Shown here piece after piece: positions 847 to 55,656 of a stretch of DNA of 64,000 bases. Position 1 is the first letter of the stretch. The number at the start of each line of letters is the position of its first letter. Origin of the DNA: Trypanosoma brucei (taxonomy: Eukaryota); assembly GCA_000002445.1 (NCBI GenBank), contig CM000208.1, forward strand, positions 2,304,001 to 2,368,000, in the 5' to 3' direction. The notes under the pieces are model-generated. The model had not been told where the DNA came from. It made no database searches and saw only the letters and a program-made list of their open reading frames with translations. Position numbers and translations under genes: made by a program.

Positions 847-849
847 GAA

Positions 850-15913: not shown

Positions 15914-16375
15914 TACGGCCTAGCGGCTGTTTCTGCTACCGAGGTGTGTGACGAAGGCGCCACCCTCCTAGCTTGCCGTGTTGCAGTTTTTTTTTTTTAC
16001 AGCTAGTTGTGGCGGTTCGCCCTCGAGTACCGAGAGACGCAGGTGCATCCCGTGAATATTCGGGTCGTTTAAACTGTTAGCGATCGGTGTCGGGATACGT
16101 GTGCTCCAGTCGGGTTTCGCTCTTTGCGCTTTCGCCCTTTCAGGGCAGCGGGTGCTTTGAGCTCCTGGTAAATGCCACTTTGTCTTTGCTAACATTTTTT
16201 TCGGGTTATCCACTTTATGACGCTTAAGGTTAGTCGTGCTACAGATGATGCCCGTATATGTGTACAATCGCCAATGTTCGCGTCCATGTAGGCGTTGGTG
16301 TTCTTATCTTCCTTACCGTTTATTTACAAGGAGGAGAAAGCAAAGTCTTTTTTTTAAAGCTGACAGCCCACTGGC

Positions 16376-35128: not shown

Positions 35129-38100
35129 ATGTTGAGCACCCTTTTCTTCGATGGTGCTGACGCTACCAGTGCACTTCACGTACGCACAACTCTTGAAGAT
35201 CGCTTGGGTGATGCACCTGCACGTACCGCAGCTGACAATGTTGTTTCATATCAGGCGATGGATTTCCCCAGTAGCGGGTCGATTCCGGTTCCATCACTGC
35301 GCGCCACACTTTTGTGGTGGTTGGATCGTGATGAGCCGCTGGTTCACATATTGCTAACGGGAAGCACAGTCGGAGATATGAGTTATTCTTCCCGTAAACT
35401 GTCAGTGGAGCTGGTATCACCGCGGCACACTATTATTGCCTGTGGTGTTACACACGTGCGAGATCAGGCGGTGTTTGCCGTGTCGTGGGTAACTTCTCTT
35501 CTCGAAGCAGGGGCTTTGCAAATTCAGCTGCAAAGGAGTAGTGATCATCACAGCCAATTGCTTATTGTTCCGGATGAACAAGCAGTACTAACATCGCGCT
35601 TCTCGGGTGTGGCGGCGGCGTTTGAGTATGATGCGTCAGTGGTTCAGGCGAAGTCAAATGGCAATGGAGGTAACGTCGATGACGAAGAGGGAAACGGGTC
35701 AGAACCCACATTGTGTGCCTCGGTTATTGCGAGCCTGCCGCAGGCCGCCGCCGCCGATGGGCTGCTTTCTGTCATTCTGTTAAGTAACGGCTGCAGGTTG
35801 TGGCGTGTGGAAATAGCCAGTGATGGTACCTTTGTTGAGCATGAGTTCAAAGATGCAAGTGGAACTAGTGATAGCGATGGGGAGTTTTTAGGCGGCAGTT
35901 TACTTCCGTCATGGCTCCTCACGTGGTCGCAAGATCATAGGGAAAAGAGCCACCGGCGGTACATCGCCGTGAGTTCCGTGCAGCTGACCCACTACTTTGC
36001 CATTCTTCGCTCTAATGGCTCAATAGGATTGTACGATGACTCCCTGTCCACCATTTCATCAGCGTCAGAGTGTGCCCTAACAAAGGATGAGATGGTTTTT
36101 AGTCACGCACTTCAGTGGTCCGCGCTTATCGGTAATGACGTGCATGTTGTCACCAGTTTTGGTAGGAAGGAAATTCGGCAGTGCTTGTGGGCTCGGATAC
36201 CCATCGCATCAACAAGCGGTGATGATCCCAAAACAGTCAAAATGACGATCCTCCCACCTTCGTCCACGAGCACCCTTTTGGGGTGTGTTGCCATAAACCC
36301 AACACGTCTTTCCCTTTTGTGGGGTATTGGGGCAGAGGAGGATGCATGTATTCGTTGTTCGCTTTCTGTTGGTTCACTCATGCATGCCAATGAGCAGGGC
36401 TTGTCAGGCATATTGCAAATCATTGATGCAGAGGAGGAGTTGGATGCAGATGGCGGTTCCATCAGTGGTTCTTGTGCTTATTCTTCACTCAGGGAGGCCC
36501 AGACTTTCTTCTGTCATTCTAAACCGCTGCATGCGCTTACGGCTGTGGGAGAAGAAATGGTACTGGTAGAAAAGGTTGATGAGAGCGTACGAGCTCATGT
36601 ACTCACCAGTGATATGAGTCCGCTCGAGGAGATGCTGGAATCTGCCTTTGCCGTTACGAGGCCGGTTGCGGCGACGACGCACTGCACACTACCACTTGCA
36701 TCCCTTCATCTGATTCCTACGGTGGTTAGAGAAAGCGGATGTGCGACGGCGGGAAAGCTTGAAGCATTTTATGAGGGCATAGAACTGGCTGCCTCATGTG
36801 CAGAGGCCGCGGATCACCTTTCGGCCCTTTTGATCAATGCAGTGCATTGTGTTCCAGTCGCATCCACCCTGGGTGGCTTTCAATTACTGCGCAGTGCCGC
36901 ACATTTACAGGGGTATACGCCCTCCGGATTTGTAAACGAGGACGCTATCAAGGCCGCCATCGAACACGCAACTATGTTTTTTGACGTTTCCACAAGGAAG
37001 GCATCGTTCTGTAGCTACTCGAGACACTTTATTCAACATACCATCGCACGGGATCTCTTGTTGCGCGTTGCTTACCTTACATGCTCTTTTATTGGTTGGA
37101 TGGGGTCGGACCCTGATTACCGAACGAGTCCTGAGATTGCCCGCGTCCGCGCTACTCTTGAACTTTTGTCCGCTGCGTACCATTCCGTAAGCGTCACAGG
37201 CCCTTCAACAGCAACCATCGTACCTGAAGTGCGTAAAACGGTCGTTGACGATGCCATTAGGTTGTTTTTACAATTTACGGTGGGCGAGGAAGCGGAGGGA
37301 AACGATGTGCTTTTTGCCGTCCGGGTGGCAAACAGGCTAAGGGCCTGCAATGAAGCTCGCGGTCCAAAAGCTTGTGCAACTTGGTGCAATCTACTTAGTC
37401 GTCGTTATCCGTGCTTGCAACACTTCCGAATTATTCGCTGCATCGAGGTAGGCCGGACGTCATGTCCCTCACAACTAGCTGCTATGTGCCTGGCGACCAC
37501 CTTTCACTTGGTGAACTGTCCTGTGCCAGTTGCCAAAGCGTTGTTGCTCGACTGTGGGTTGGCCATATACAACGACAGCACATTTCAAACTGCCTTCAAC
37601 GGTATAGACGTCAGAGAGTGGTGGGCGCTGCTAGACGATAGCGGTGACTCCAACGATGGAAAAATAAGTGCCGTCATCGCCTCTGTGTACCGTGTGGCGC
37701 TCCTTCGCTGCATTGTGCACCCCGGTACTTCACACCATGCGAGCGCTAGTGCATCGCTAGTTCGTGAGCTGTTTCTTGCGGAACTGATTCAACTCGGACA
37801 GCACCTTCAAGAGTCACGTCTTGACTGTCCTGGGATCCTTCGGGCACTCACAGAACTCCGCGTAGATACGCACATGTTTCTCGCGAGAGCGGCTCTCGAC
37901 GATCCCAACTTTGGGGATGCGTTCCGGTCGATTGCAGATGTGCAGCAGATCGCGGTGGGTCCTGATATAAAGACTGTGTGCATGGAGAAGATTGGGCTTT
38001 TGATTGGTGAGGTAGTCGAGATTGCGTCTTCATCCGATGAACTTACCGACTGCCTTGTCGACGTCACGCACTGTAGTGCTGAACTAGACACTCTTCTCAC

Positions 38101-39349
38101 GTCCAAGTGGTACTCGTTTATTGCACGACTAGCTGTCAGAAGCGGTTCAACAGAGGCAGAACAACTGCGATGGCGCGCAGCAATTGGCCTGTACCGTTAC
38201 CTTTGCAAGCGTCACGCATACGGGCAAGCCGGCCGGATGATGACAGACCTTACCACAGCCATACGTTGCTCATCGCTTCGTGCGAACGTTGTTGAAACAG
38301 TGGTGGAACTCACTTCACTGGCTGTGACCGCGGTGGAACTCATCTCTCCAATAGCTCCACTTCAGGTACAAGACAGCGAACCCTTGGATGGTGCTCAGGA
38401 ATCTTCCACATTTAGTGCGTGCAGTGGTACAGGGTGCTTTTTTACACCAGAGTACGCAGCTGTGAGGGAGCCGTTGGGTCGTGAGCACCTTCCATGGGTG
38501 CGGCGTCGCCATTATCAGGCATATTGTGAACAGCAACTCCTGAAGGCGAATCGACGTGTGGACTGCACGGATTTGTGGGTAGAAAATCCGCCACCAGCGG
38601 CGTACGCCGCTGCATTGAGACGCTTCGTGGAGGCACTCATGGAGGCGCGGCTATGGACTGAGGCTTTGCGGTTTGCAGCTATGGCAGGGGCTGATGTTGG
38701 TTTGGTGCTTCAAAATCACGCGCTGGACCTTATGAAACATACAAATTACACCTGCGACGAGGAGGCTCTTGAGGAGTGGGTTATGTTAGTGGCAAGTTGT
38801 GAAGAATTTTCCACACTTTCTAACAAGTATTCACCATTGCGTTCAACTGTTGTCACAGCACTTCTATGTGACTGCGAAAAGGTGTGCCCTGCGCTCCTAG
38901 ATTCTCTCCTAAAGGCCGACCGCTATGAAGCGCTACAAGCGCTTCTTGAGGTATTTGAAACGCTGCTTCGCAGAAATTCCTTCTCCGAAGGAGACGATAT
39001 GACCGACGGAGAGGACCGTAACCACGACTCCTTGACATCTGCCGCATGCAATGAGGAGGAAGGTGATGATAAAAGTGACGGTGCGTACAAACCATGGATG
39101 TTGCTGCTGAAGGCCCTTCAAATCGGTACCGCCGTTCTCATGGACTCGCTCTCGAATGAAGAAAAGTTTGAGCTAAACGAAGCACCGATGACGGCTGGTG
39201 TCTTTGATCCTATGGTGCGGAGGGCGAGTGAACTACTGAACTCACCGTTGTTGCTTCAACACCCTTCTCTTGTGAAAGCGGAGGGTACAGCAACGAACTT
39301 TTTGAAATTTGTTGGGTTGGTGAAGCAGAAGAAGTTAGCAGGGCTATAG
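35129..39349 (+). CDS. Large hypothetical protein (1406 aa) with no domain I can recognise. The C-terminal half looks alpha-helical/solenoid-like.
   Basis: A 4.2-kb uninterrupted + strand ORF. Composition and codon usage are consistent with neighbouring genes. Confidence 0.7.
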   Translation: MLSTLFFDGADATSALHVRTTLEDRLGDAPARTAADNVVSYQAMDFPSSGSIPVPSLRATLLWWLDRDEPLVHILLTGSTVGDMSYSSRKLSVELVSPRHTIIACGVTHVRDQAVFAVSWVTSLLEAGALQIQLQRSSDHHSQLLIVPDEQAVLTSRFSGVAAAFEYDASVVQAKSNGNGGNVDDEEGNGSEPTLCASVIASLPQAAAADGLLSVILLSNGCRLWRVEIASDGTFVEHEFKDASGTSDSDGEFLGGSLLPSWLLTWSQDHREKSHRRYIAVSSVQLTHYFAILRSNGSIGLYDDSLSTISSASECALTKDEMVFSHALQWSALIGNDVHVVTSFGRKEIRQCLWARIPIASTSGDDPKTVKMTILPPSSTSTLLGCVAINPTRLSLLWGIGAEEDACIRCSLSVGSLMHANEQGLSGILQIIDAEEELDADGGSISGSCAYSSLREAQTFFCHSKPLHALTAVGEEMVLVEKVDESVRAHVLTSDMSPLEEMLESAFAVTRPVAATTHCTLPLASLHLIPTVVRESGCATAGKLEAFYEGIELAASCAEAADHLSALLINAVHCVPVASTLGGFQLLRSAAHLQGYTPSGFVNEDAIKAAIEHATMFFDVSTRKASFCSYSRHFIQHTIARDLLLRVAYLTCSFIGWMGSDPDYRTSPEIARVRATLELLSAAYHSVSVTGPSTATIVPEVRKTVVDDAIRLFLQFTVGEEAEGNDVLFAVRVANRLRACNEARGPKACATWCNLLSRRYPCLQHFRIIRCIEVGRTSCPSQLAAMCLATTFHLVNCPVPVAKALLLDCGLAIYNDSTFQTAFNGIDVREWWALLDDSGDSNDGKISAVIASVYRVALLRCIVHPGTSHHASASASLVRELFLAELIQLGQHLQESRLDCPGILRALTELRVDTHMFLARAALDDPNFGDAFRSIADVQQIAVGPDIKTVCMEKIGLLIGEVVEIASSSDELTDCLVDVTHCSAELDTLLTSKWYSFIARLAVRSGSTEAEQLRWRAAIGLYRYLCKRHAYGQAGRMMTDLTTAIRCSSLRANVVETVVELTSLAVTAVELISPIAPLQVQDSEPLDGAQESSTFSACSGTGCFFTPEYAAVREPLGREHLPWVRRRHYQAYCEQQLLKANRRVDCTDLWVENPPPAAYAAALRRFVEALMEARLWTEALRFAAMAGADVGLVLQNHALDLMKHTNYTCDEEALEEWVMLVASCEEFSTLSNKYSPLRSTVVTALLCDCEKVCPALLDSLLKADRYEALQALLEVFETLLRRNSFSEGDDMTDGEDRNHDSLTSAACNEEEGDDKSDGAYKPWMLLLKALQIGTAVLMDSLSNEEKFELNEAPMTAGVFDPMVRRASELLNSPLLLQHPSLVKAEGTATNFLKFVGLVKQKKLAGL

Positions 39350-39818: not shown

Positions 39819-42149
39819 ATGAAGCGGAACCGTAACCACAACGACCAAATGGGTCCAGCGGCTGCAGCGTTGCGCCGCCGCTCTGTTTTTCGTGATGCTC
39901 GCGCTTCTTCTACACAGTTGACTGATGCCCAGTTAATCGCAGGGGCGCTAGAGATGCAGCGTAGCATTGGCCCCTCGAACACAAGTACAACTGTTGTTAT
40001 CAACAGCCCAGAGGAACTTGCTCTTTACAGACAAAAAACGCGTGCTGAACTGGAGGAGCGGGTGAAACGCGGCTACACATTCCTTGGAAATTGGGTGAAG
40101 TATGCGAGGTGGGAGGCACAACAGAAAGACTACGAGCGCATGCGCAGCATACTGGAACGCGCCGTCAAGTTTCATGGCGCAAATCCCGTTCTCTGGCGCG
40201 ATTATGCTGAGTTGGAGGAGGAGGGTGGTTTTATAAATCATGCACGAGCGGTGTGGGAGCGTGGTGTCACTGCACTACCATCCGCGACAGACCTCTGGCT
40301 AAAATATATTGTGCTCGAACAGGCAGCAGGGCAGGACGGTAAGGTGCGCGACTTATTTAACCGTTGGGTGTCAGGGCCGACGCCACCTGCGTGCGCATGG
40401 GAGTTATTTGCGCTGTTCGAGGCGCAACAGCGTCGCGCTGAAAACTGTCGGGATATTTTGCGGCGGTATGTGGAGGCTCACGGCACTGTGGAGTGTTGGA
40501 TTTTCTATGGTAGTGCCGAGTTGAATGTGCTGAAGAATGCGGACCGTGCCGCCATGGTTTACGCTTGTGCGATGGAATCGTTGCCTAACGAATATATAAA
40601 TGGTGAGAAAGATTGTCGAATACCGCTTGCGTGGGCTGACGCCCTTGCCGCCGCACTGAAATTTGATGAAGCACGCGAACTATATCATCGTCTTTTGAAG
40701 GAGTGTACATCTGTGAAGGCACTGGACGCCATTTTCACGGCTTACAAGCGCTTTGAACGACTATACGGAAGTGCTGAGAACCATGAGACTATGACCTCAG
40801 TCATCGCCAGAGCAATGTACCAGCATCGCATCGCCCACAACCCTCGTGATTTTGATGCTTACGTTGCGCAGTTTCTACTTTTTCGTGATGCGACCCAAGG
40901 AGATAATGCAAGTGTGTGTGCGGGCCATGCTGTTAATGTGGGCAGTAAGGGAGGAGCGTGGGAGGAGGCACTCCAGTGTTTAACGGCTGCTGCTGGGATC
41001 CGTATTGATGGGGAGAAAGATGCTGTGTTGGCGCAACACCACGCTGTTGTGGTGATGGCATATGCGCGTTTGGTGGAGGAGCGTGGTGATGTGGCCGCTG
41101 CACGCTCAGCATTAGCGAAGTGCATCCGCCATTTCCCCTTTAAGACGGCATGTTGCCCACGACTCTGGATAGAGGCTGCAGCGCTTGAAGAGCGACATGG
41201 TGAGTTTGTTCAAGCACAAAAACTTCTCGCTGCGTCACTTAATATCTCACCCTGCCCCGAAGTATTCGATGCTGCGCTTCGCTTGGAGTCTAATGCTTGC
41301 GCAGCTGGTGAAGTTAGCGCAGAAAGTTGCGTTCAGCGCAGTCGTGCCATCTATGAGAGTGCGATTAAGCAGTTCCCACAAAATTTCGCCTTGTGGGAGG
41401 GCTACGCGAAGTTGGAGGAGAAAGAACGACAATTTCACCGCTCTGACGCCCTGCGTGCTGCATGCATACGTTCCTTCTCCGCAGTTGCGCGGTCGGTGGT
41501 CTCGTTGTCTGAGCGTTATGAAGTACTGGAGAAGGTGGACCAAGCTTGGGCGCGCCGCCTCGCTCTGAAGCGACGTCTCCTTCGCTCTGCCCGCAAGAAA
41601 ACGTGTGGAGGGCTCTCGGAGAGTGCTGAGGTGGAGGAACTTAACTTTTCCCTTCGTCAGCTATACCAAGAGCTGTTGGATTCCGTGTGGGATGAATACA
41701 TATATGAAGCATTACGTTGGAGGGGTAAAAATGCCTCAACAGTTGGGGTTCTCTCCCCGCCCCCATTGCGGCTGCCGGAGGTTCTTACACCGGCGACGGC
41801 CAGATGGGCAGAGGCCGTTAGTGCGGTGACAAATTTTGTTGTCTCGTCGACGACGGCTGATGGTCGACCGGAGGACTCGTCTGTGGAGTGGATGCGCACA
41901 ACATTCCGTAAGCGGCTTGAGAGGTACCGCCCCAAGTTGCTGCAAGAGTTTGGGGGGCTGGACAATAACGCCAGTTTTGAGGCGATACAACAGTCGAAGC
42001 GGTGGGTAGAATTCCTTCTGTCTCCGAACGGAACGGAGTGGCGGCGGTTTGAAGCAGCTCATGGGACATCTGATACGTTGGAAGCGGCGAAGGAATGCAC
42101 GCAACCAACTGCACGTCGCACGCGGTTGTTTGTGAAGAAAAAGGCATGA
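39819..42149 (+). CDS. HAT (half-a-TPR) repeat pre-mRNA splicing factor, crooked-neck-like (CRN/Clf1/Syf3 family).
   Basis: The N-terminal region aligns by eye to Clf1/CRN. WVKYARWEAQQKDYERMRSILERAV matches WIKYAQWEE..ARSIYERAL. NHARAVWERGVTALP matches NHARNIWDRAITTLP. There are repeated W..Y...E and F..ARE.Y.R HAT units. Confidence 0.8.
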   Translation: MKRNRNHNDQMGPAAAALRRRSVFRDARASSTQLTDAQLIAGALEMQRSIGPSNTSTTVVINSPEELALYRQKTRAELEERVKRGYTFLGNWVKYARWEAQQKDYERMRSILERAVKFHGANPVLWRDYAELEEEGGFINHARAVWERGVTALPSATDLWLKYIVLEQAAGQDGKVRDLFNRWVSGPTPPACAWELFALFEAQQRRAENCRDILRRYVEAHGTVECWIFYGSAELNVLKNADRAAMVYACAMESLPNEYINGEKDCRIPLAWADALAAALKFDEARELYHRLLKECTSVKALDAIFTAYKRFERLYGSAENHETMTSVIARAMYQHRIAHNPRDFDAYVAQFLLFRDATQGDNASVCAGHAVNVGSKGGAWEEALQCLTAAAGIRIDGEKDAVLAQHHAVVVMAYARLVEERGDVAAARSALAKCIRHFPFKTACCPRLWIEAAALEERHGEFVQAQKLLAASLNISPCPEVFDAALRLESNACAAGEVSAESCVQRSRAIYESAIKQFPQNFALWEGYAKLEEKERQFHRSDALRAACIRSFSAVARSVVSLSERYEVLEKVDQAWARRLALKRRLLRSARKKTCGGLSESAEVEELNFSLRQLYQELLDSVWDEYIYEALRWRGKNASTVGVLSPPPLRLPEVLTPATARWAEAVSAVTNFVVSSTTADGRPEDSSVEWMRTTFRKRLERYRPKLLQEFGGLDNNASFEAIQQSKRWVEFLLSPNGTEWRRFEAAHGTSDTLEAAKECTQPTARRTRLFVKKKA

Positions 42150-42479: not shown

Positions 42480-45437
42480 TTGTTTCCCGGTCCACAGGTA
42501 AAAATGGAGCAGGCACAGCGGCCGCCGGACAATGTGATGGGTGTTATGCGTTGTGCTGTTGAGCGGGGTCGCAAGTCATTCGTTGCGTATAAGAAACGTT
42601 TTTGGGTTGTTGATGAGACACAAGGCCGTTTAGAGGTGTACAAAAATGATCAAGAGCCGGTACCGCTAGATAGGTTCTGCGCATCAGAGGTGCGTGGAGT
42701 CATTATATCTGGTGACAGACAGAACAAGTTTTATGGCCTTGTACTGCAACTTCGGCGTGGCCAAAACATCAAACTCCGACTTAGCTCTCTGGCGGAACGG
42801 GATAGGTGGTATGCCGCAATCACTCGTCTCATCGAACGATGCTCCACGTACAATCGTGACTATAATCTGTTGCGCGTCGCGCAACGGAGAACGCTGGTGG
42901 CAGGGCGTTTATTAGGGGTGAACATTACTTTGGCCGTTGCACGATTAAGTGATATCCCTGATGATCTTCTTCAGTACCTGGTGGAAGCCGTTGATGTTGC
43001 CATCGACACAATCTCCGCGGCGGTCCATGCATACGGTGGTGATGTGGAGGTGCCACGGCGGTACACGATCACAGTAGAAGCGGGCCAGGATCGTATTGAT
43101 ACGGGCCCACAGTATGACCCAACTACAGGTAGTCTCCTGCTAAACGTGTGGATTTCACGAGATGTAACAGGTAACGTTCGCTTCAATGTTGCGGATTCGG
43201 CGGAAGTGATGAAAATGACGCAGTCACACGTGTGGCGTGAACCGCGGATCGAGGGGTGGATCACAACAAATCCAAGTTGCGTTGCTGTTTGCCGTGAAAT
43301 TGGTGAAATGCTCGGAAGCAGGAACTTTTCATTTTCATTCCAGTGGGGCCAAAACTTACGGGATACGGAGAGGGTTGAACAATATTTGCATCAGTACGTT
43401 CATGAGGATTTTTTGCGTGCAATTCATCGGAATATCGTCGAGGTAGTGGAGGATTTCAGACGCTCTGATACAGACGCTGACGATTCGTGCTATCTCAAGT
43501 ACATTGGGGACTTTGTTTCTGGAATAGCTATTGTTCTGGATGAATCAACTGTAAATGCGGGGAAGCCACCTCTACTGCGTGTAACAACTACGGTTGAGTA
43601 CCAGCGGCGTTGCAGGCACGCAGTGGTGCTGAAGTCGAAATACTTTGAAGTGTACCGGACGCAGCGTGTGCTGACCAAGTCATTGAGGTTGCAACTTGTA
43701 GAAGTTATTCTCCTAGCAGACCTGAGCAAGCGGCTGAGTGACAGTAAAACTGCCCTAACTCAAGCCATTGGAGGCAACGAATGTGTGCGTATTATATGGG
43801 TTAACTTATTTCGCTCGTTTGCAAGCGTTGGCGCTCAGCTACCTCAATTTAAGTTATCTGATGTGGTCACTTCCATCACTAACACTTATTTGACCCGTCT
43901 AGAAAGCCTACAGCAGTTGGGGTCACTTGAGCTACCGTACGCTGGAGTGAAACCGCTTTACGCATCACTTTTTTCCAATGTCACCACTCTTGTCGTTGAT
44001 TTTGTGCCATTTAAGGAGGACGACGTTTCCCAACTGCCGGAGCCAAAGGTTCACGACGGTATATTGACGGATTACATTGTCTGCTGCACAGCCGCTCAAC
44101 AACGTGCTATGATGAATTTCATTTGTTCGCGAAGAGGTGTACCTCAGATTGATCGAGCCTATGTGCTGTTGAATGGTCTTTTTGCTTTTCCTTCGATGCC
44201 CGCAACTACCTTCAAGGAGTGGTGCGAGAAACAAGCATTTAATGGCGTGGAGGGATACAGTGGGGCGAATGACGATGATTCTAGCTCCCGCTCTTCTGGA
44301 GGAAGTGATGACTTGGGCGATGCTGTGGCGTTTGAGCGCAACGCGGAGGCACAAGTGCTCGATCTGCACCGTGTTGTGAGTACAATCTACGACTCGCAAG
44401 GTGCTGCCGTACACCTTAAGATCGGTGCGGATTCTATCCGTGATGCTATCGAAGCCCTCGAACAGGCATTTGACGGACGTCAGATTCGTAAGCACGATTT
44501 GGTGCGTGTACTTACAGCCAATCTACGTCGACTACGGGCTATTTATAGTCATGCTGTTGGAGGTGAAGTGATGACTCGTCTCGACTTAGATGCGGCAGGA
44601 CGGCTTCTTCGTTCTCTCTGTGAATACAAGGAAAGTGAACAAGGCCTTGATGAGTTGCTTCAGCGATGTGCCCAACAACGACAGCAGGCCGTGAGGCTGG
44701 GAAGCAGTGACTCGGTGCCCCAAGAAAGAAGATCGCTGTCCTGCAGCGCATCGGAAAGTATCTACGATTTTCAATGTGTATCGCAAGTGGCGCTAAACTA
44801 TGTTCTACCACGGGAGGTGAAGCTAGCCCGTAAAGCGTGGCGCGTCGGTCTTGTTGCGGGTCTTCAGGATGTTGGAAAAACGCTGATCCTCAACTCTCTT
44901 CACGGTGTCATACAACCGACATTTCCAACAATTGGACTTTCCCAGAGAGTAATCGCTTTTGAGGAGTGGGTGTTTGCGATGCACGAACTCGGTGGTCGAG
45001 AGAGTTTTCGTGAGAACTGGCGCTACTACGTTGAACGCATGGAGGAGGTCGATTTCTTGTTCTTTGTCGTAGACAGTATGAACAAACGCGCCTTCAAATA
45101 TGCCTCCAATTATCTGCGTGAGATTACCAATTATTTCGTGAATACTCCCCTTGTTGTGTTGTTCAACAATGTCCGTGTAGGCGTTAGAGGCGTTTCCTTG
45201 TTGGATCACTTGTCAGGTGCTGTTAAACTGGACAAAATAAAAAAACGGCAGCCAGAGAGATTCATCATCGTTGGGACATGTGATATTACTGTGGTGAGCT
45301 CGTCGCACCGCACAATTCCTCCGACACTTCTTGAAACTATGCAGCGTCTTGGGGAATATCTACGCCAAGTGTCACCACCGGAGCGAACGCCCAGCGAACC
45401 AAAGAAGGGATCTGGAGTTGAATACACAACGACATAG
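42480..45437 (+). CDS. Multidomain protein (985 aa) with an N-terminal PH-like domain and a C-terminal ARF/ARL-like small-GTPase domain that has substituted catalytic motifs.
   Basis: The PH-like region is RKSFVAYKKRFWVVDETQGRLEVYKND...RDRWYAAITRLI. The ARF-like region (~44830-45260) has the P-loop GLQDVGKT, PTIG (ARF PTIGFN), HELGGRE in place of WDVGGQ, WRYY (ARF WRHYF), FFVVDS, and VLFNNVR in place of NKxD. Confidence 0.8.
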   Translation: MFPGPQVKMEQAQRPPDNVMGVMRCAVERGRKSFVAYKKRFWVVDETQGRLEVYKNDQEPVPLDRFCASEVRGVIISGDRQNKFYGLVLQLRRGQNIKLRLSSLAERDRWYAAITRLIERCSTYNRDYNLLRVAQRRTLVAGRLLGVNITLAVARLSDIPDDLLQYLVEAVDVAIDTISAAVHAYGGDVEVPRRYTITVEAGQDRIDTGPQYDPTTGSLLLNVWISRDVTGNVRFNVADSAEVMKMTQSHVWREPRIEGWITTNPSCVAVCREIGEMLGSRNFSFSFQWGQNLRDTERVEQYLHQYVHEDFLRAIHRNIVEVVEDFRRSDTDADDSCYLKYIGDFVSGIAIVLDESTVNAGKPPLLRVTTTVEYQRRCRHAVVLKSKYFEVYRTQRVLTKSLRLQLVEVILLADLSKRLSDSKTALTQAIGGNECVRIIWVNLFRSFASVGAQLPQFKLSDVVTSITNTYLTRLESLQQLGSLELPYAGVKPLYASLFSNVTTLVVDFVPFKEDDVSQLPEPKVHDGILTDYIVCCTAAQQRAMMNFICSRRGVPQIDRAYVLLNGLFAFPSMPATTFKEWCEKQAFNGVEGYSGANDDDSSSRSSGGSDDLGDAVAFERNAEAQVLDLHRVVSTIYDSQGAAVHLKIGADSIRDAIEALEQAFDGRQIRKHDLVRVLTANLRRLRAIYSHAVGGEVMTRLDLDAAGRLLRSLCEYKESEQGLDELLQRCAQQRQQAVRLGSSDSVPQERRSLSCSASESIYDFQCVSQVALNYVLPREVKLARKAWRVGLVAGLQDVGKTLILNSLHGVIQPTFPTIGLSQRVIAFEEWVFAMHELGGRESFRENWRYYVERMEEVDFLFFVVDSMNKRAFKYASNYLREITNYFVNTPLVVLFNNVRVGVRGVSLLDHLSGAVKLDKIKKRQPERFIIVGTCDITVVSSSHRTIPPTLLETMQRLGEYLRQVSPPERTPSEPKKGSGVEYTTT

Positions 45438-46717: not shown

Positions 46718-48121
46718 ATGAGTGTTTGCCTTGGCACGGATCCGTCTCCGCAACTGTTTGCAAGTTGGGCTAAGAAACAGGGCATCTTTCTCCACCCCGA
46801 TGTAGCCTTTCTTGTTCCTACCAAAACAATGGGAGCAGGTGTGTTCGCTCGGAGGCAGCTTCCAAAGGAAACTGTTATAGTCAGCTGCCCATTCAGCAGT
46901 TCCATTTCGCCGTATGCGGGGCCTTCCACCGTTGAAGCTCCCTGTGTGAAAGCACTTAATGATACCCAAGTAAAAGATAATGTATTGTACGTGACACTGC
47001 GCTTTATGGCAGAAGTTCTGCGGCCTTCATCGCCTTGGGTACCGTGGCTTAAAACGTGCCCGCGCATGTTAGACCACCTTTTTGGCAATGTGATTGATGA
47101 TAAAGCGTTTTGCTCTGCTACATGTACCTCATTAGGTACTGTTTCGACACGGTGGACATGTCTTTCGCAACAACTGCTCGAGATGAATGTTTCCCAGCGG
47201 TGGGGTCTTGCAGAAGAGATTATGAAACGCTATCCCGAACACTGGCCGGAGGATCGCGCTACGTTTCCTCTTTTTTGTGAGTGTCTGGCCCTGGTGCTCT
47301 CACGTAATTTCCACCGGGAGAACGTTGAGGGCCGTGAAGGTCCTTACTTACTCCCTGGTCTTGACATGGTCAACCACTCCTTTGAGGCGAACGCAATCCT
47401 GGAAATCCGTGGGGGCGGACGCAAGCATAGTTTAACCTTTTGTCTGGTCGCCTCCAAAGAGTTACGTCGTGGAGAGCAGGTGCTTCTTTCCTATGGAAAG
47501 ATTGGCGCCGCACGGTTTGCCGTGGAGTTCCAGTTCGTCACGGATTCTGTTGTAGGGGAGGATATGCTTCGATTTTCCGTTGATGTAATAGTGGACATAG
47601 TTGCAGCTATTATGGCATCGGGTGAAAGCACAAACGACACAGAATCGAACGTAAGGATGTTGCGGCAGCGCGTGGAGCGACTACAGCGCCTTGGGTTTCT
47701 CTTCGATGAGGGTCTTTACATCTCACGATTACCACGCACCTCAATCAACCGTGACTTAGATGCTGTCGGTAGTTCGTGTTCTGCCTCCACTTGGGGTGCC
47801 GAGATCGCACCTGCAACCGTTAAAGATGTTCAGCGGTTCTTTAATGTTTTCCATCTTATGACGGTAAGCACTGGTGAGTTTGACCATCTAATTCACACCA
47901 TAAACCGGGATTGGCAGGTGAAGCGCACAGATGCCTTGATGACCCTAGCGTCCAGGGTGATAGCTATGCGAGCAGAAGCAGCTCATCTGCAGCTGAATTT
48001 GGTTCAAGAGCAGTTTTCAGGGGAGGAACACTCCTCTCGTCGTAGGCTCATGGAAACTGTTCTGAACTCTGAGCTGCAGATGCTGGATACACTTCAGGAG
48101 TACGTGAAAGGAATGTGTTAA
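46718..48121 (+). CDS. SET-domain protein lysine methyltransferase-like (467 aa), SETD6/LSMT-like class.
   Basis: LLPGLDMVNHSFEANA is the SET NH(S/C)xxPN-like motif. ELRRGEQVLLSYG is the SET GEELxxxYG-like motif. It has a long C-terminal helical region. Confidence 0.75.
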   Translation: MSVCLGTDPSPQLFASWAKKQGIFLHPDVAFLVPTKTMGAGVFARRQLPKETVIVSCPFSSSISPYAGPSTVEAPCVKALNDTQVKDNVLYVTLRFMAEVLRPSSPWVPWLKTCPRMLDHLFGNVIDDKAFCSATCTSLGTVSTRWTCLSQQLLEMNVSQRWGLAEEIMKRYPEHWPEDRATFPLFCECLALVLSRNFHRENVEGREGPYLLPGLDMVNHSFEANAILEIRGGGRKHSLTFCLVASKELRRGEQVLLSYGKIGAARFAVEFQFVTDSVVGEDMLRFSVDVIVDIVAAIMASGESTNDTESNVRMLRQRVERLQRLGFLFDEGLYISRLPRTSINRDLDAVGSSCSASTWGAEIAPATVKDVQRFFNVFHLMTVSTGEFDHLIHTINRDWQVKRTDALMTLASRVIAMRAEAAHLQLNLVQEQFSGEEHSSRRRLMETVLNSELQMLDTLQEYVKGMC

Positions 48122-48570
48122 GATTTTTTTCTTGTAGTCGCACAAGGGTTTCGGACGTACCGCTTGTAAATATATAGGGGGGGGGTGTCCAGTTCTTTTT
48201 TTTTTGAGGGTTCGGCGATTAAAGCTCTCAACGATCCCCTTCCTCCCATTTCGTCATTCGCTTTAATTATTTGGGGGCCGCTGGCTACTCTATAATTCCT
48301 GTTCCTGGTTGTTCTACTGTGGTACCATGACACTTCTTGTAGTGTTTACAGATGAGTCTCATCTATACGCACTGCCGCCATATTTTTCGATCTCTCCCAC
48401 TTTCCCTGTTTTCGCCCACCCTCAAGTCTCTCCTCTCCAAAGACGCATCTATATTTACTCTTCTGTATACGTGTGCACACAATTTTTTACACAACTGAGG
48501 TTAAGGTATTGTTGGATCATTGTGGTGAACAATCCTGACGCGTATCGTTGCGCGACGTGGGAAGAGGTCG

Positions 48571-48659
48571 TATATATATATATATATACTTGGTGAGTGG
48601 CTGTGTGTCTGTTCGTATACGTTTGCGTGGCGCAGCGTGGTACAAACATATATATATAT
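48571..48659. repeat. Two (TA)n microsatellites, at 48571-48588 and 48648-48659, flanking the first ATG of the 1860-aa gene.
   Basis: Read directly from the sequence. This suggests the annotated N-terminus (MAVCLFVYVCVAQRGTNIYIYAL) is probably 5' UTR. Confidence 0.7.
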
Positions 48660-51600
48660 GCGCTGATGAATAAGCTGCTTATCACGCTACATGGCTGTCA
48701 TATAATGCATTCCCCGGGTCTCTCGACCGTTTCCCCTCGCGTATTAATAGTGGTGGATGGTGTGTACGAGTTCGTGGCTCACGGGAAAGCTAGCACCTTC
48801 ACATCCTACTTCAACGAGCTTTTCACAGTTGGTTACATTGACCGCTTAACAGTAGTTGAAGTACTTGTATACAATTCGTCAACCACGGGATGTGGAGACT
48901 ACAACGAACAACAGTTGCTTGGGACATGTCGATTATCCACCGTGTGGTTGTTCCAGGGGAAGACACCTAAGCGGCGACGCCATGTTTTGGCGAACGATGC
49001 CGGCATAGCCGGGACAGTTGAGCTCACTTTGATGCTTGACACCTCTAGGGAAGGTAAAGGCAGCTTTGAAGAAGAGACGAACGAGTGGTGTGCCTCGCGT
49101 TTGGTTCGTTTTCTGATGCACAATGATAAGGGCCGTTTGAGGGATGTAGACCTTTTGCTTTCCACAATGGAGACTGATGGAGCACCACTGAGGCCTCTAG
49201 CATCACCCCCAAAATGCGCAGCTGCTTCCTCTGAGAGTTCGCGAAGCTCTTGCGCGGCTTTTGAAGAATTAATGAGGAACCTGTGCGAGGAGTATCACTG
49301 TGAAGAACCTCCGCAGTGTCGGGTCCGGGTTGCTTTGGAAGGTTGTACCTCTCTTGAAGAAAGTGACAAGCACCACTCATCAAATGTAATTGTGGTGTTT
49401 CGGAGTACAGCCGAGGAGTTCGTGTCGCCGTCAAGGCCGTACACGTCTAACCCTGTCTGGGGATCAACGTTGGGTACGGCCACTTTCGACGTCTGTAACC
49501 CGGAGGACTTTGTGCTTGATGTTATTGTGTACCGCATCACTTCGTCATCGGGTTATGTTGAAGTTGGCCGGGCGCGAATACGTGTTTACATGCTCACAAC
49601 GGAATACTCTTCCAAAAGACAATATTTTATTTTCCGCCATGATAGTTACATAACGCCATGTGTTACAGGCGCCGTCCATATCACAATAAAACCGTTGGGG
49701 TTCGGACTGTCACCGAAAGATGCGGGTGGAACCGCCGACTTGTTCCATGCTCGGTTGAATCGTTTTTTTTACCGCTACGATCGTCGGCGACTGCAAGAGG
49801 TGGATATTATTCTCTACTCTCGCAGGAATAAACTGGATGAATTGATGGACGAATTGGAAGTTTACTACGGTCGTGAACCTGGCACGGCAGTACTGTGTTT
49901 GACTGTGGAGGAGGTGCAATCGTTATTGCATGTTGCATCTACGGACCTCGATGGTGAGGATGTAGTAGTTGTGGTCACAATGGGTAGCCAATCGAACCGT
50001 ACAGACGCTAAGCGAGTGACTGCGAACTCTCGAATAGTTTTTGGCAATGCTTTTCAGATTGACGTTGTTCGAGAAACTGATATGATACGGTTTGAAGTAG
50101 TGAAAGCAGGATGTGAGGACGTTGTGTACGGAAGCGTGGATTTTACTTGCCTCAGAATTCAGAAAGGTGTTGAGAATACCCGGACGCTGTATTTGGTAGG
50201 AGCTGCGGGCACAGAGAAGGCATTTCTAAGTGGAACAATAACAGTTACTTTTTTCAGTGAAAATTTGGGCCAGTCGTACACTGCTGATACAGAATCAGAG
50301 TGCATGTATGCAGGGCGTCTGCGTCGCTATGCGTGTCAGCACGCACCAGAAAAACTGCATCTTGTGGACGTGGCGGTTGCTACTGTTTTCGATACTGAGG
50401 GATTCATGAAGGAAATGAGTCGAGATTATGGCGAAGAGAATCCAACTTATGTGCTGTACATGACAGTATTGGGGTGTCGAAAGCTGAGGAAGCGTTTTGG
50501 GTTTACAATGAGTGCGTACGTTGTCGCTCGTATGGGCGTGGACCGCTACGAGACACGTGTAGTGAGAAATAGTACGAAGCCGGACTACTTTGAATTCTTT
50601 GAGTTTTTTATAGATCAGTTCGCGCACACGGAACTCACCCTAGTAGTTATGGATCAGTACGACATGGGTACCGACAAAGAGGTTGGCCGGACTGTCATTC
50701 CCTTGGAAAATGCAATCCCCGAGCATCAGTACAACCTCTGGTTGCCTCTCATGAAGGATGGGTGCTCCAACTGTGGGTTTGTGGGTGTGAAGTTTGTGGT
50801 AAAGGATCTTCAACTTCGCGACTCGTTGTGTGACCACGTCAAAGCAGGAACCTTCTCAGAGCGTTGCGGCCCTAGACAAGAGGAGCTTACATCGCCAAAT
50901 GAGTCACGACGGGCAACAGGTGTTACCAATTTTTCCAACGCGTTATACCACTTGTTTGGTGGGTGGGGCAAGAGAATATTCCGTGCGCCTCGGTGGCAGC
51001 CGTGGCGGGACGAGTCCAGCAAGGGGTTCTCCAAGCTCAAGGTATCTGAAGGGGTTTCGGGCTGTGAGCATGGATCAGATCACCCAGTGCTTGCGAACAT
51101 CATTGACGACGGCATCTACTCTGCAAGTGAGTTCTTGCGACCCAGAACAGCGAGAACGGCACCCAAGTTATTATCAAATCTTCTTGTTAAACAGCGTGCT
51201 CGTCACACCCTCGTCCCGCAAACACCTAACTCTACCACAGGAAGGCGGTTTTTACATGTACACCTCCACTACTGTGACGACTTGGAAGAGAGGCGTTTAG
51301 TTCCTCCAAGCCCATGTGTGATGCTCGCAACGCTCAGGACAACATACATTTCGAGAACAGCGTTCGAAACTTGTTCACCCCGATATGACGATGTGTTTCA
51401 TTTTCCCATCACTTGCCCAGATGAGGACTTTCTTACCATAACAGTCATGACAGACACGCCGTACGGTAGAAAAACTCTTGGGTTCTGTATGCTCTCCATA
51501 AAAAATGTTTGCTATGGCATGCCTCAAACGCGTTACGTAGCGCTGGTGGTCGCCCCTCATGGATCTGTGGCGCAACAACGTGGTGTGGTGTGTCTCTCCC

Positions 51601-54179: not shown

Positions 54180-55656
54180 TGGCGCCGCGCTTTACTGTGA
54201 AAGACTGTTAAGTACATATGTATGTTTATATTGTTTGCAGGGCTCGTGGAACGGTTCGGATGTAAGTGTTTGTGATGTGGTAGTCGTTCGTTTCTGTCAT
54301 GATGTTTAGTAGCGTAAAATAAAGTATTCGTTTATTTATTTGTTGTCCCTTTTTTTAAAAAAAAAATTGTGTAATACCCCTTCTCGCAAAAGTAACGGAA
54401 GAACGGGGCGGTTCTTCCTGAAAGACTGTGAAAATAAAAACAGTACGATACACCGCTGGTGTACAGGGGGAAAGGGGGAAAAAAGGAAAGTCAAGTATGG
54501 TATAGTATTTATTTGTTTGTAGTCTGCTGGCCCCGTGTATTATATGGCAAAACTGAATATAGTGGAACCGTACGTACGGCACTTCGTTCGGTGCCTTTTT
54601 TTTTTTGCGCTGTTTCGTTTATTTGATGCCCTTCATGACTTCTCTTTCCCCCACTGAATCTTACGGTTTTGGCATTACTTACTCGATGGTGGTAACGGGT
54701 TCCGTCATCTTGTCTTTTTATATTTTAAACCTCTTGTTAGCCCGGTTTTCGTTTTTTTCTTTTCTTAAAAAAAAAAAATAATCTAACTCCTGTTTGTGTT
54801 TTTTGGAACAGATCGATGTATGTGGTTGAGGTGTAGAGAGGACAACAGGCACAACAACTTGTGCGATATTACGTGTCGCATGTTAGTTTCCTACCCTTTT
54901 TGTTGCTGTTGTTGTCCTTCACTTCTGTCAGCGGCTTACTTGTTCGTAAAAGTGTCATGGGAGAGGAGAGAGTTCGATTGGAACACTTCCTGATGTGGAA
55001 AACGATTAAGTCTTTTTTCCCCCTTCTGTTCGCTGTGGCTTATTGGTAGACCCCTCATGTGAGCACTTTTATTCTGCTCCCCCTTTGTACTGTTTTCCGT
55101 CTGTGCGAAAACCACTCGTGCCTCTTCTTGTATACTTCGTCATGATACCTTCTTTCTATTTTCTCCTTCTCATTCTTATCATCAATTTACCGTTTCCTTT
55201 CCCCCCTTTTTTTTCGCACTGCCCCCAAAGTGTTCATTTAAACCCCCACTATCACAGTGGTTGTGAACTGAGTGTGTAGAGTGCAGGAGGCGGATAACAA
55301 CAAAAGGGCTCCATCACTGACACTACGCTACCCGCCACCTGTGTTTTGAACGGTACGCACACACATAAGCACACAAGCAGAAAAAGAAAACGAAAAAAGA
55401 AAGGGAGACATTAGGGGTTTCAAAAGGGAGAGTAATTCGAAGAGCAGAGAAGGAAGGGGAACATCACGGCACATATTCCTAGAAGGGCGATTGTTAATAA
55501 TTTGCTCGGACGAGGGAGGGCTACGAGAGGAAGTGAGTGAGACGAACAGAAGTCACATTCTCACTGATAGTGTTGTGCGAGGGTTTTTGTGTTTCAAGAC
55601 AACGAGAATATTGTCCATTTAAGCAGGGTAACACTTCGTCACCCTCGTAGAAATAT

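What the first reader, a model, noticed from the sequence alone, without database searches (positions are those of the whole stretch)
42480..45437. PH-domain protein carrying a C-terminal ARF-like GTPase domain with substituted catalytic and guanine-specificity motifs (possible pseudo-GTPase)
The C-terminal ~140 aa align clearly with ARF/ARL proteins (P-loop GLQDVGKT, PTIG, WRYY, FVVDS). However, switch II reads MHELGGRE instead of WDVGGQ, so the conserved Asp and the catalytic Gln are replaced by His and Arg. The G4 motif NKxD is replaced by NNVR. This predicts either loss of GTP hydrolysis and guanine specificity, or an atypical nucleotide cycle.

The domain is fused to an N-terminal PH-like module and an ~600-aa helical middle region. 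As far as I can recall, this architecture is not standard for ARLs.
Basis: partly seen in the sequence, partly recalled or inferred. Interest (0 to 1): 0.65.

Follow-up and report, generated by a model that had tools for sequence, protein, structure and literature searches.

The report
Trypanosome PH-Arf: atypical Arf-like GTPase
This is the Trypanosoma brucei "PH-Arf" gene, already catalogued in 2021, and its Arf-like domain has substitutions at the catalytic and guanine-reading positions that are conserved across kinetoplastids and diplonemids, so it is probably not a normal GTP/GDP switch, although nobody has tested this.

Summary

- **Motifs.** Aligned to human ARF1 without gaps from switch I to switch II, WDVGGQ reads HELGGR and NKQD reads NNVR. 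No canonical DxxGQ or [NT]KxD occurs anywhere in the protein.
- **Conservation in 26 homologues (Trypanosoma, Leishmania, Phytomonas, Bodo, diplonemids).** The P-loop GK[ST], the switch-I Thr/Ser and the switch-II GG are invariant. D67→E occurs in 26/26, Q71→R in 23/26 and K127→N in 25/26. D129 is unconstrained.
- **Reading.** This is a remodelled pocket under selection, not a decayed one. I infer that it binds nucleotide phosphates, lacks canonical hydrolysis and has lost NKxD guanine reading. This is untested.

The exact protein is already published as "TbrPH-Arf" (XP_823190.1; Vargová et al. 2021), so the architecture is not new.

New here:
- the motif conservation analysis;
- the extension of the family to diplonemids;
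- a ~630-aa α/β middle region, not all-helical, with no detectable relative in the PDB;
- evidence that the choanoflagellate PH+Arf fusion is independent.

Interest is modest.

The parts
42504..45437 (+). Complete CDS of T. brucei PH-Arf (977 aa plus stop).
   Evidence: P0001, 977 aa, 100% identical; identical over the ~430 aa shown to published TbrPH-Arf, XP_823190.1.
42528..42842 (+). PH domain (aa 9-113): seven strands plus a C-terminal helix. The basic YKKRFWVV motif lies at the start of beta2 (42588-42611).
   Evidence: Pfam PH: 23.2 bits in T. brucei; 26-35 bits, above the cut-off, in 6 of 9 homologues. AF2 secondary structure E11-93 + H96-113. Foldseek hits to AKT1, SKAP55 and pleckstrin PH domains, TMt 0.63-0.70. 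K30, K31 and R32 are invariant.
42843..44243 (+). Conserved alpha/beta middle region (aa 114-580), family-specific, with no known relative.
44244..44318 (+). Acidic, Ser-rich disordered linker (aa 581-605; DDDSSSRSSGGSDD).
   Evidence: pLDDT <50. Low identity between orthologues, 16-44% outside the closest orthologue (72% to T. congolense).
44319..44708 (+). Highly conserved helical region (aa 606-735; ...ERxAExQVL...YDSQG...KHDL.R.L..L.RLR...CEY).
   Evidence: Invariant columns. Helices in the AF2 model. The EF-hand idea was tested and not supported: hhalign probability 5%, and only sub-threshold Pfam EF-hand hits in one diplonemid.
44763..44843 (+). Conserved helix preceding the G domain (aa 754-780, YDFQCVSQVALNYVLPREVKLARKAWR). 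It aligns with the N-terminal amphipathic helix of ARF1.
   Evidence: alignment. 70-93% identity between Trypanosoma species. AF2 helix H756-778.
44844..45371 (+). ARF-family G domain (aa 781-956).
   Evidence: Pfam Arf E=5.5e-16. PDB phmmer hits are all ARF/ARL. Foldseek hits PfARF1, Sar1, Arl1, Arl2 and Arl13B, TMt 0.55-0.69. The family HMM scores Bodo Arf1a highest, 93 bits.
44859..44882 (+). G1 / P-loop GLQDVGKT, intact GxxxxGK[ST].
   Evidence: G24, G29 and K30 are 26/26; T31 is T or S in 26/26.
44925..44936 (+). Switch I PTIG, with the Mg2+-coordinating Thr (ARF1 T48) retained.
   Evidence: T in 22 and S in 4 of 26.
44982..45002 (+). G3 / switch II HELGGRE in place of WDVGGQD: D67→E and Q71→R, with G69 and G70 kept.
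   Evidence: E 26/26; GG 26/26; R in 23, S in 2 and G in 1 of 26.
45162..45176 (+). G4 FNNVR in place of ANKQD: N126 kept, K127→N, D129→R.
   Evidence: N126 26/26; N at the K127 position 25/26; the D129 position is variable (R16, P5, G2, Q, A, D).
45276..45290 (+). G5 TCDIT in place of TCATS (A160→D), followed by an insertion of ~9 aa (VVSSSHRTI).
   Evidence: C 23/26; D at the A160 position 21/26.
45390..45407 (+). C-terminal short motif PSEPKK, matching a conserved P-x-x-P-K about 20 aa after the last helix of the G domain.
   Evidence: Present in nearly all kinetoplastid members. Function unknown.

Best explanation
**What it is.** This is the T. brucei orthologue of 'PH-Arf'. It is probably Tb927.10.9670, an ID inferred only from its neighbours NUP152 (Tb927.10.9650) and SYF3 (Tb927.10.9660). 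PH-Arf is a ~1000-aa protein specific to kinetoplastids and diplonemids.

**Architecture (shown).** The order is PH domain, ~470-aa orphan alpha/beta region, acidic linker, conserved helical region, helix, then an ARF-fold G domain.

**Mechanism (inferred).**
- The PH domain, with its invariant K-K-R at beta2, places the protein on a phosphoinositide-containing membrane. In ordinary Arfs the myristoylated N-terminal helix does this job.
- The G domain keeps everything that grips the phosphates and Mg2+: the P-loop GK[ST], the switch-I Thr and the switch-II GG.
- It has fixed Glu for the DxxG Asp, Arg for the catalytic Gln, Asn for the NKxD Lys and a new Asp in G5. It has lost the guanine-reading Asp of NKxD.
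- It therefore most likely binds a nucleoside triphosphate with weakened or altered base specificity and cannot hydrolyse it by the canonical Gln mechanism.
- That would make it a non-cycling or very slowly cycling, GAP-insensitive module. In pseudoGTPase terms this is the 'binds but does not hydrolyse' class.
- It would serve as a built-in interaction surface or conformational latch for the rest of the protein rather than as a GEF/GAP-timed switch.
- The conserved helix in front of the G domain occupies the position of the Arf N-terminal helix. It may couple the G-domain state to the upstream domains.
For: **Identity**
- 100% identical to P0001.
- Identical over the ~430 aa shown to TbrPH-Arf, XP_823190.1.
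- The neighbouring ORFs match NUP152 and SYF3 in size and order.

**Domains:**

**Register and substitutions:**

**Selective constraint**
- 26/26 for G24, G29, K30, G69, G70 and N126, and for Glu at the D67 position.
- T31 and T48 are kept as T or S in 26/26.
- Arg at the Q71 position in 23/26, Asn at K127 in 25/26, Asp at A160 in 21/26, and D129 free to vary.
- The G domain is as conserved as the rest of the protein: 65% T. brucei to T. cruzi, 85% to T. congolense.
- No gap between T48 and G70, so the interswitch hairpin keeps its length.

**Established knowledge (not tested here)**
- In Ras/Arf GTPases the P-loop Lys and Ser/Thr and the switch-I Thr bind the beta/gamma-phosphates and Mg2+.
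- The DxxG Gly binds the gamma-phosphate.
- The following Gln positions the attacking water.
- The NKxD Asp makes the guanine-specific hydrogen bonds.
- Ras Q61R is hydrolysis-dead, and Ras D119N and K117N weaken or alter guanine binding.
Against: - There is no biochemical, localisation or knock-down evidence for this protein in the searchable literature.
- AF2 modelled the switch I, interswitch and switch II stretch (aa 787-837) with pLDDT <50 and as helices, from the shallow 9-sequence alignment. The fold of that segment is therefore supported by sequence alignment only.
- Loss of both the NKxD Lys and Asp could lower affinity enough that the domain is nucleotide-free in vivo.
- An Arg at the Gln position, or a partner protein, could support non-canonical catalysis.
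- Phosphoinositide binding by the PH domain is inferred from a sequence motif only.
Confidence: 0.55

Rival explanations
1. The domain is an active but non-canonical NTPase or switch. It still cycles, using Arg832 in cis or residues supplied by a partner for catalysis, as RapGAP supplies an Asn for Gln-less Rap. It may have changed base specificity (ATP, XTP or promiscuous), read by the new conserved G5 Asp.
For: - All phosphate- and Mg2+-binding residues are invariant.
- The replacement residues E, R, N and D are themselves conserved rather than drifting, which is what a re-engineered active site would look like.
- From general knowledge: P-loop NTPases of the G-domain class with altered G4 motifs, such as YchF/OLA1, use ATP.
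Against: - Diplonemid members have Ser or Gly instead of Arg at the Gln position, so Arg is not a family-wide catalytic residue.
- The D129 position is unconstrained.
- Arg at the equivalent Ras position (Q61R) blocks hydrolysis (general knowledge).
- No assay exists.
Confidence: 0.25
2. The domain is a nucleotide-free structural pseudoGTPase (class I). It no longer binds any nucleotide and persists only as a protein-protein interaction fold, as proposed for microsporidian ArlEM.
For: - Two of the three base-contacting elements are lost: the NKxD Lys and Asp, and the G5 Ala.
- AF2 gave low confidence for the switch regions.
- There is precedent in the ARF family (PMC13393502; ARL14 and ARL15 purified in the apo state, PMC12722892).
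Against: Strict invariance of GxxxxGK[ST], the switch-I Thr/Ser and the switch-II GG over the kinetoplastid-diplonemid divergence is hard to explain if no phosphate is bound. Class I pseudoGTPases typically lose the P-loop (general knowledge).
Confidence: 0.15
3. Artefact: mis-registered motifs, a pseudogene, or a chance ORF.
For: None found.
Against: - Pfam E=5.5e-16.
- Gap-free alignment to ARF1 across the switches.
- No canonical motifs elsewhere in the protein.
- Intact full-length orthologues in at least 8 Trypanosoma species, Leishmania, Phytomonas, Bodo and diplonemids.
Confidence: 0.01

Closest known systems
PH-Arf of kinetoplastids (TbrPH-Arf XP_823190.1, TcrPH-ARF, LmaPH-Arf, BsaPH-ARF; Vargová et al. 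2021, Genome Biol Evol, PMC8358228)
   Same: It is this protein: identical over the ~430 aa shown. The paper describes an N-terminal PH domain joined by a long linker to an ARF-family GTPase domain, and lists the protein as a divergent, 'unannotated' lineage-specific ARF family member.
   Different: Nothing differs in the object. The paper's main text does not discuss the G-motif substitutions or a pseudoGTPase reading; in my term search 'pseudo' occurred twice, and the one passage shown concerns pseudogenes. It treats the middle as a 'linker' and groups the protein with the choanoflagellate proteins. Here I find that the middle is a conserved folded region, that the family reaches diplonemids, and that Monosiga MbrArlX shows no homology in the N-terminal and middle parts.
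Canonical ARF1 / ARL GTPases (Pfam PF00025)
   Same: G-domain fold, P-loop, switch-I Thr, interswitch length, the switch-II W/Y pattern (RxxWxxY), the FVVDS strand, and a helix N-terminal to the domain. Among Bodo ARF-family proteins, Arf1a scores highest against the family profile, followed by Arl5, Arl18, Arf1b, Arl1 and Arl8.
   Different: WDxGGQ becomes xELGGR, NKxD becomes NNxx, and CAT becomes CD[IV]T. There is no N-terminal Gly or myristoylation site because the domain sits at the C-terminus of a ~1000-aa protein.
ARL13B
   Same: An ARF-family member that lacks the catalytic Gln (Gly instead; the T. brucei protein reads FDLGGG), carries extra domains and does not act as a classical switch. 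The model also hits Arl13B by fold (5di3_B).
   Different: ARL13 keeps DxxG and NKxD (LANKKD in T. brucei), and its extra domains are different. The family profile scores Bodo Arl13 below Arf1 and Arl5.
ARL16
   Same: Kinetoplastid Arl16 also reads ELGG in G3, and the Bodo protein even reads ELGGR. It has a degenerate G4 (NKAA, QKCA, NRCG).
   Different: They are not related beyond the family level. The PH-Arf G-domain HMM scores Arl16 at only 8-11 bits, against 93 for Arf1a. The shared ELGG is therefore convergent.
PseudoGTPases that bind but do not hydrolyse GTP (Rnd1-3, RhoH; 'class II' in the numbering of PMC12722892, which cites Stiegler & Boggon 2020)
   Same: Intact phosphate-binding elements combined with substitution of the catalytic Gln. 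The predicted consequence is a constitutive nucleotide-bound state regulated by expression or localisation rather than by a GTPase cycle.
   Different: Rnd and RhoH are Rho-family, single-domain proteins that keep NKxD and guanine specificity. In PH-Arf the state is only inferred.
TRIM23/ARD1 and other multidomain ARF proteins; choanoflagellate MbrArlX and SroArlX (PH-like + Arf)
   Same: An ARF-family domain at the C-terminus of a large multidomain protein. The choanoflagellate proteins also begin with a PH-like domain.
   Different: The partner domains are different. The N-terminal 399 aa of MbrArlX has no detectable similarity to the kinetoplastid N-terminal and middle profile (hhalign probability 0.4%). 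The exhaustive profile search also found no full-length member that I could place outside Euglenozoa; only 10 hits were checked for a source name, 3 carried an organism name, and one PH-only hit looked fungal by eye.

Membership tests
ARF family (Pfam PF00025) | Significant match to the family profile above the curated cut-off | tested here: met
   59 bits against a cut-off of 22.3, E=5.5e-16. Homologues score 47-79 bits.
ARF family (Pfam PF00025) | P-loop GxxxxGK[ST] and switch-I Thr | tested here: met
   GLQDVGKT and PTIG. The P-loop and the switch-I T/S are invariant in 26/26.
ARF family (Pfam PF00025) | Interswitch hairpin of ARF length between switch I and switch II | tested here: met
   No gap between ARF1 T48 and G70 in the MAFFT alignment. 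The structural model of this stretch has low confidence.
ARF family (Pfam PF00025) | G3 motif WDxGGQ (Asp and catalytic Gln) | tested here: not met
   HELGGR. E in 26/26; R, S or G at the Gln position. No DxxGQ anywhere in the protein.
ARF family (Pfam PF00025) | G4 motif NKxD (guanine specificity) | tested here: not met
   NNVR. Asn at the Lys position in 25/26, and the Asp position is variable. No [NT]KxD anywhere in the protein.
ARF family (Pfam PF00025) | N-terminal amphipathic helix, usually myristoylated at Gly2 | tested here: not met
   The domain is C-terminal. A conserved internal helix aligns with the ARF1 helix, but no N-terminal Gly is possible. Vargová et al. also list the protein as not myristoylated.
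ARF family (Pfam PF00025) | GTP binding and GAP-stimulated hydrolysis | not testable with these tools
   Needs a biochemical assay.
PH domain (Pfam PF00169) | Profile match above the gathering score | tested here: inconclusive
   T. brucei scores 23.2 bits against 25.1. Six of nine homologues pass, at 25.9-34.8 bits.
PH domain (Pfam PF00169) | Seven-stranded beta sandwich capped by a C-terminal helix | tested here: met
   AF2 gives strands 11-93 and helix 96-113. Foldseek hits AKT1 PH (1unr, E=9e-4, TMt 0.64) and SKAP55 PH (TMt 0.70).
PH domain (Pfam PF00169) | Phosphoinositide binding through the basic beta1-beta2 motif | not testable with these tools
   K30, K31 and R32 are invariant. Lipid binding has not been assayed.
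PH-Arf (Vargová et al. 2021) | Sequence identity or orthology to TbrPH-Arf, XP_823190.1 | tested here: met
   Identical over the ~430 aa printed in the supplement. 100% identical to the NCBI 977-aa protein P0001.
PseudoGTPase (Stiegler & Boggon 2020 definition) | G-domain fold with G-motif changes predicted to impair binding or hydrolysis | tested here: met
PseudoGTPase (Stiegler & Boggon 2020 definition) | Demonstrated lack of nucleotide binding and/or hydrolysis | not testable with these tools
   No experimental data found.
EF-hand pair (considered for aa ~606-710) | Profile similarity to EF-hand domains | tested here: not met

The most novel reading that the evidence does not exclude
The PH-Arf G domain is not a decayed GTPase. 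It is a re-engineered nucleotide sensor of the Arf fold, with a conserved E/R/N/D replacement set (E828, R832, N889, D927). It binds nucleotide without guanine specificity, possibly ATP, and does not cycle through GEFs and GAPs. The 470-aa middle region, which has no structural relative in the PDB, would be a new fold acting as its built-in effector or regulator. Together they would form a self-contained membrane module specific to kinetoplastids and diplonemids.
Probability: 0.2. Interest if true: 0.55.

Novelty: already known. Interest (0 to 1): 0.3.

Why it matters
- **If the inference holds.** PH-Arf would be a clear, anciently fixed example of an ARF-fold protein that has left the GTP/GDP switch paradigm while keeping a phosphate-binding pocket. 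That bears on the current debate over how many ARLs are really pseudoGTPases (PMC12722892).
- **For parasitology.** The protein is conserved in all trypanosomatids examined and in free-living Bodo and diplonemids. No homologue of its N-terminal and middle regions turned up outside that group, and it contains a large orphan domain. That makes it a lineage-specific candidate for study, although there is no evidence yet that it is essential.
- **For annotation.** Orthologues are currently mis-named 'ARL2', 'SAR1' and even 'L-rhamnose mutarotase'.
- **As a discovery it is limited.** The gene and its architecture were published in 2021, and atypical G motifs in ARLs are common.

Tried and rejected
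1. **Mis-registration.** Rejected. The alignment to ARF1 is gap-free across the switches, and no canonical motif occurs elsewhere.
2. **Descent of the G domain from Arl16,** which shares ELGG and a degenerate G4. Rejected. The family HMM scores Arl16 at 8-11 bits, against 93 for Arf1a.
3. **EF-hand pair upstream of the G domain,** suggested by a canonical-looking DKNNSGAINAPD loop in Diplonema. Not supported: hhalign probability 5% and only sub-threshold Pfam hits.
4. **A known fold for the middle region.**
   - Foldseek against the PDB gives nothing at E<=1e-3. Folliculin/DENN chains appear only at E about 2.4, which is not significant.
   - A profile search against PDB sequences finds only a weak PH hit.
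   - The afdb50 library was unavailable.
5. **Common origin with the choanoflagellate PH+Arf proteins.** No support.
6. **Literature on function.**
   - Searches for XP_823190, 'PH-Arf', Tb927.10.9670 and Tb927.10.9680, and guessed Leishmania IDs found nothing specific.
   - The searches cover main text only, so supplementary tables (TrypTag, RIT-seq, proteomes) were not reached.
7. **A frameshift hiding the 'LSSSxAWR' C-terminal tail** seen in other Trypanosoma orthologues. No such tail occurs in any frame downstream.
8. **Functional linkage to neighbouring genes.** The neighbours (NUP152, SYF3, a SET-domain protein, C2-domain proteins) look functionally unrelated. From general knowledge, this is expected for a trypanosome polycistronic unit.
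Full report
**1. The observation**

The + strand carries an uninterrupted ORF at 42480-45437. Its first listed codon is an in-frame TTG. The database protein that matches at 100% identity (P0001, 977 aa, labelled Trypanosoma equiperdum/brucei) begins at the ATG at 42504, MEQAQRPP.

Pfam places an Arf domain at aa 780-934 of the 985-aa reading, with E=5.5e-16 and 59 bits against a cut-off of 22.3. It places a PH domain at aa 32-118 just below its cut-off, at 23.2 against 25.1 bits. phmmer against all PDB sequences returns only ARF, ARL and Sar-type chains, with E down to 3e-10.

- GLQDVGKT 44859-44882
- PTIG 44925-44936
- HELGGRE 44982-45002
- FNNVR 45162-45176

**2. Is the register right?**

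Yes. I aligned 26 family members with human ARF1 using MAFFT.
- There is no gap between ARF1 T48 and G70.
- HELGGR lies on W66-D67-V-G-G70-Q71.
- NNVR lies on N126-K127-Q128-D129.
- TCDIT lies on T158-C159-A160-T161-S162.

The HMMER alignments to PDB ARFs show the same register. A pattern scan finds no DxxGQ and no [NT]KxD anywhere in the 977 residues, and only one P-loop.

**3. What the gene is**

The window is Trypanosoma brucei-group chromosome 10.
- The two upstream ORFs match NUP152 (Tb927.10.9650, 1406 aa) and SYF3 (Tb927.10.9660, 87.6 kDa, 776 aa).
- The target is therefore probably Tb927.10.9670. This is inferred from gene order and was not verified.

The protein is already in the literature. 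Vargová et al. 2021 (PMC8358228) list it as 'TbrPH-Arf', XP_823190.1, with domain 'PH' and class 'unannotated'. They also list TcrPH-ARF, LmaPH-Arf and BsaPH-ARF. [quoted passage not shown] The supplement sequence is identical to the window translation over the ~430 aa shown.

**4. How far the family and the substitutions reach**

I ran a profile of the PH and middle regions only (aa 1-753, alignment A2) against 1.84 billion representative proteins.
- It found just 32 hits at E<=1e-3.
- All 17 near-full-length hits I read (except the C-terminally truncated P0014 and P0031) end in an Arf-like domain.
- Source names place members in Phytomonas, Diplonema papillatum and the diplonemid Namystynia.
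- Leishmania and Bodo sequences come from the paper.

The table gives residue counts at ARF1-equivalent positions in the 26 sequences.

| ARF1 position | Residue in the 26 family members |
|---|---|
| G24, G29, K30 | unchanged, 26/26 |
| T31 | T in 18, S in 8 |
| T48 | T in 22, S in 4 |
| D67 | E in 26/26 |
| G69, G70 | unchanged, 26/26 |
| Q71 | R in 23 (kinetoplastids); S in 2 and G in 1 (diplonemids) |
| N126 | unchanged, 26/26 |
| K127 | N in 25 |
| D129 | R16, P5, G2, Q1, A1, D1 |
| C159 | C in 23 |
| A160 | D in 21 |

The G domain is at least as conserved as the rest of the protein. It is 85% identical to T. congolense, 65% to T. cruzi and 44% to the most distant of the four orthologues compared (P0010, an unnamed sequence 36% identical overall). 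The substitutions are therefore ancient and fixed. The phosphate- and Mg2+-contacting residues are under strict purifying selection, while the guanine-specific Asp position is free.

**5. Domain anatomy**

- **PH domain.** Six of nine homologues pass Pfam's PH cut-off. The full-length AF2 model (pLDDT 65.8, pTM 0.43) shows seven strands plus a C-terminal helix at aa 11-113. Its only Foldseek matches in the PDB are PH domains (AKT1, SKAP55, pleckstrin; TMt 0.63-0.70) and ARF-family GTPases (PfARF1, Sar1, Arl1, Arl2, Arl13B; TMt 0.55-0.69).
- **Middle region.** A second model covers aa 115-745 and was built on a 24-sequence alignment that includes diplonemids. It reaches pLDDT 79 and pTM 0.70 and is clearly alpha/beta, not all-helical.
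  - Foldseek gives nothing at E<=1e-3 and TM at or below 0.2.
  - A profile search of PDB sequences finds nothing in this region.
  - With these tools, the region has no detectable known relative.
- **Linker and helical region.** An acidic Ser-rich disordered linker (aa 581-605) separates the middle region from a very conserved helical region (aa 606-735).
- **Pre-G helix.** A 27-aa helix (YDFQCVSQVALNYVLPRE...) immediately precedes the G domain. It aligns with the ARF1 N-terminal amphipathic helix.
- **C-terminal motif.** A short P-x-x-P-K motif follows the G domain in nearly all kinetoplastid members.

**6. Mechanism**

Shown:
- the architecture;
- the intact phosphate-binding set;
- the fixed replacements;
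- conservation across kinetoplastids and diplonemids.

Inferred from established knowledge of Ras-superfamily chemistry (not tested here):
- Gln71 positions the hydrolytic water, and Arg at the equivalent Ras position (Q61R) blocks hydrolysis.
- The NKxD Asp provides guanine specificity, and the Lys stacks on the base.
- Mutating either one weakens or re-specifies binding.

The most economical reading follows from these points. The domain still holds a nucleoside triphosphate through its phosphates and Mg2+. It reads the base poorly or differently, and the newly conserved G5 Asp is a candidate contact. It does not hydrolyse by the canonical route. It would then be a non-cycling or slowly cycling module whose activity is set by where the PH domain puts the protein and by intramolecular contacts, not by GEFs and GAPs. 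I put this at about 0.55.

Rivals:
- An active but non-canonical NTPase or ATP-binding switch (0.25). The Ser or Gly at the 'Arg' position in diplonemids counts against it.
- A nucleotide-free structural pseudoGTPase (0.15). The invariance of the P-loop, T48 and GG counts against it.
- Artefact (about 0.01).

**7. Ideas tested and dropped**

- **Arl16 kinship.** Kinetoplastid Arl16 also reads ELGG and has a degenerate G4. The PH-Arf G-domain HMM nevertheless scores Bodo Arf1a at 93 bits, then Arl5, Arl18, Arf1b, Arl1 and Arl8, and scores Arl16 at only 8-11 bits. The resemblance is convergent.
- **EF-hand pair at aa ~606-710.** This was suggested by a canonical-looking loop in Diplonema. It gets 5% hhalign probability and only sub-threshold Pfam hits.
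- **Choanoflagellate relatives.** The first 399 aa of Monosiga MbrArlX (PH-like + Arf) have no similarity to the kinetoplastid profile (probability 0.4%). That fusion looks independent.
- **Functional literature.** No functional paper on the gene was found. The searches do not reach supplementary tables.

**8. Comparison and novelty**

By sequence and fold the domain is an ARF-family member (membership by profile, P-loop, switch I and interswitch length). It fails three defining ARF features that I tested: WDxGGQ, NKxD and the N-terminal myristoylated helix.

In working terms it most resembles the pseudoGTPases that bind but do not hydrolyse (Rnd, RhoH). Within the ARF family it resembles Gln-less ARL13. 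Other putative ARF-family pseudoGTPases have recently been proposed, such as microsporidian ArlEM, and several mammalian ARLs are under suspicion.

The object is already known. What this analysis adds:
- the residue-level conservation argument;
- the extension of the family to diplonemids;
- the finding that the 'linker' is a large conserved alpha/beta region with no structural relative in the PDB;
- the likely independence of the choanoflagellate fusion.

Interest is 0.3. A specialist would find it plausible rather than surprising. It opens a testable but narrow question.

Noticed in passing
window 48-4625 (+): A tandem array of at least three paralogous ORFs of ~420 aa (751-2022, 2042-3319, 3390-4625), with a partial copy at 48-731. 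The first two are 69% identical. They have a hydrophobic TM-like segment near the N-terminus (LYLIVIALLIVVGVMA) and no Pfam hit.
   Followed up: partly
window ~8230-16370: About 8 kb with no ORF of 200 aa or more on either strand. GC is relatively high (0.49-0.54), and GC skew and AT skew are negative over most of it, so the + strand is pyrimidine-rich from about 10 kb. This contrasts with the rest of the window. The short ORFs there have no Pfam hit. It could be a degenerate retroelement or a long intergenic or UTR stretch. Unexplained.
   Followed up: partly
window 61872-62295: A 63-bp tandem repeat, 6.7 copies at 96% identity (21-aa repeats), lies inside the 570-aa ORF 60847-62559. The only Pfam similarity is a weak, sub-threshold repeat hit.
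   Followed up: no
window 45408-45437, and orthologues P0003-P0008: T. brucei and T. congolense PH-Arf end early (…GSGVEYTTT*). They lack the C-terminal 'LSSSxAWR[LVI]' tail shared by T. grayi, T. vivax, T. theileri, T. melophagium, T. cruzi and T. conorhini. No such tail is encoded in any frame downstream in the window.
   Followed up: yes
database records of homologues (P0003, P0004, P0006, P0008, P0022, P0035): Orthologues are mis-annotated in public databases. Several Trypanosoma entries are named 'ADP-ribosylation factor-like 2, arl2'. Diplonema papillatum KAJ9445037.1 is named 'Small COPII coat GTPase SAR1'. JGI metagenome members are named 'L-rhamnose mutarotase'.
   Followed up: no
window 46718-59214 (+): The downstream neighbours are a SET-domain protein (46718-48121) and two large C2-domain proteins (48597-54179, 1860 aa; 55657-59214, 1185 aa). 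Upstream are NUP152 (35129-39349) and SYF3 (39819-42149). All are on the + strand, consistent with one polycistronic unit.
   Followed up: partly
P0018, P0021, P0023, P0033 (homologues from EukProt and metagenome assemblies): Some family members are greatly expanded (1495-3157 aa) by low-complexity insertions in the middle region, but keep the PH domain, the conserved blocks and the xELGGRE / NN[YF]P G-domain motifs. Their organisms were not identified.
   Followed up: no
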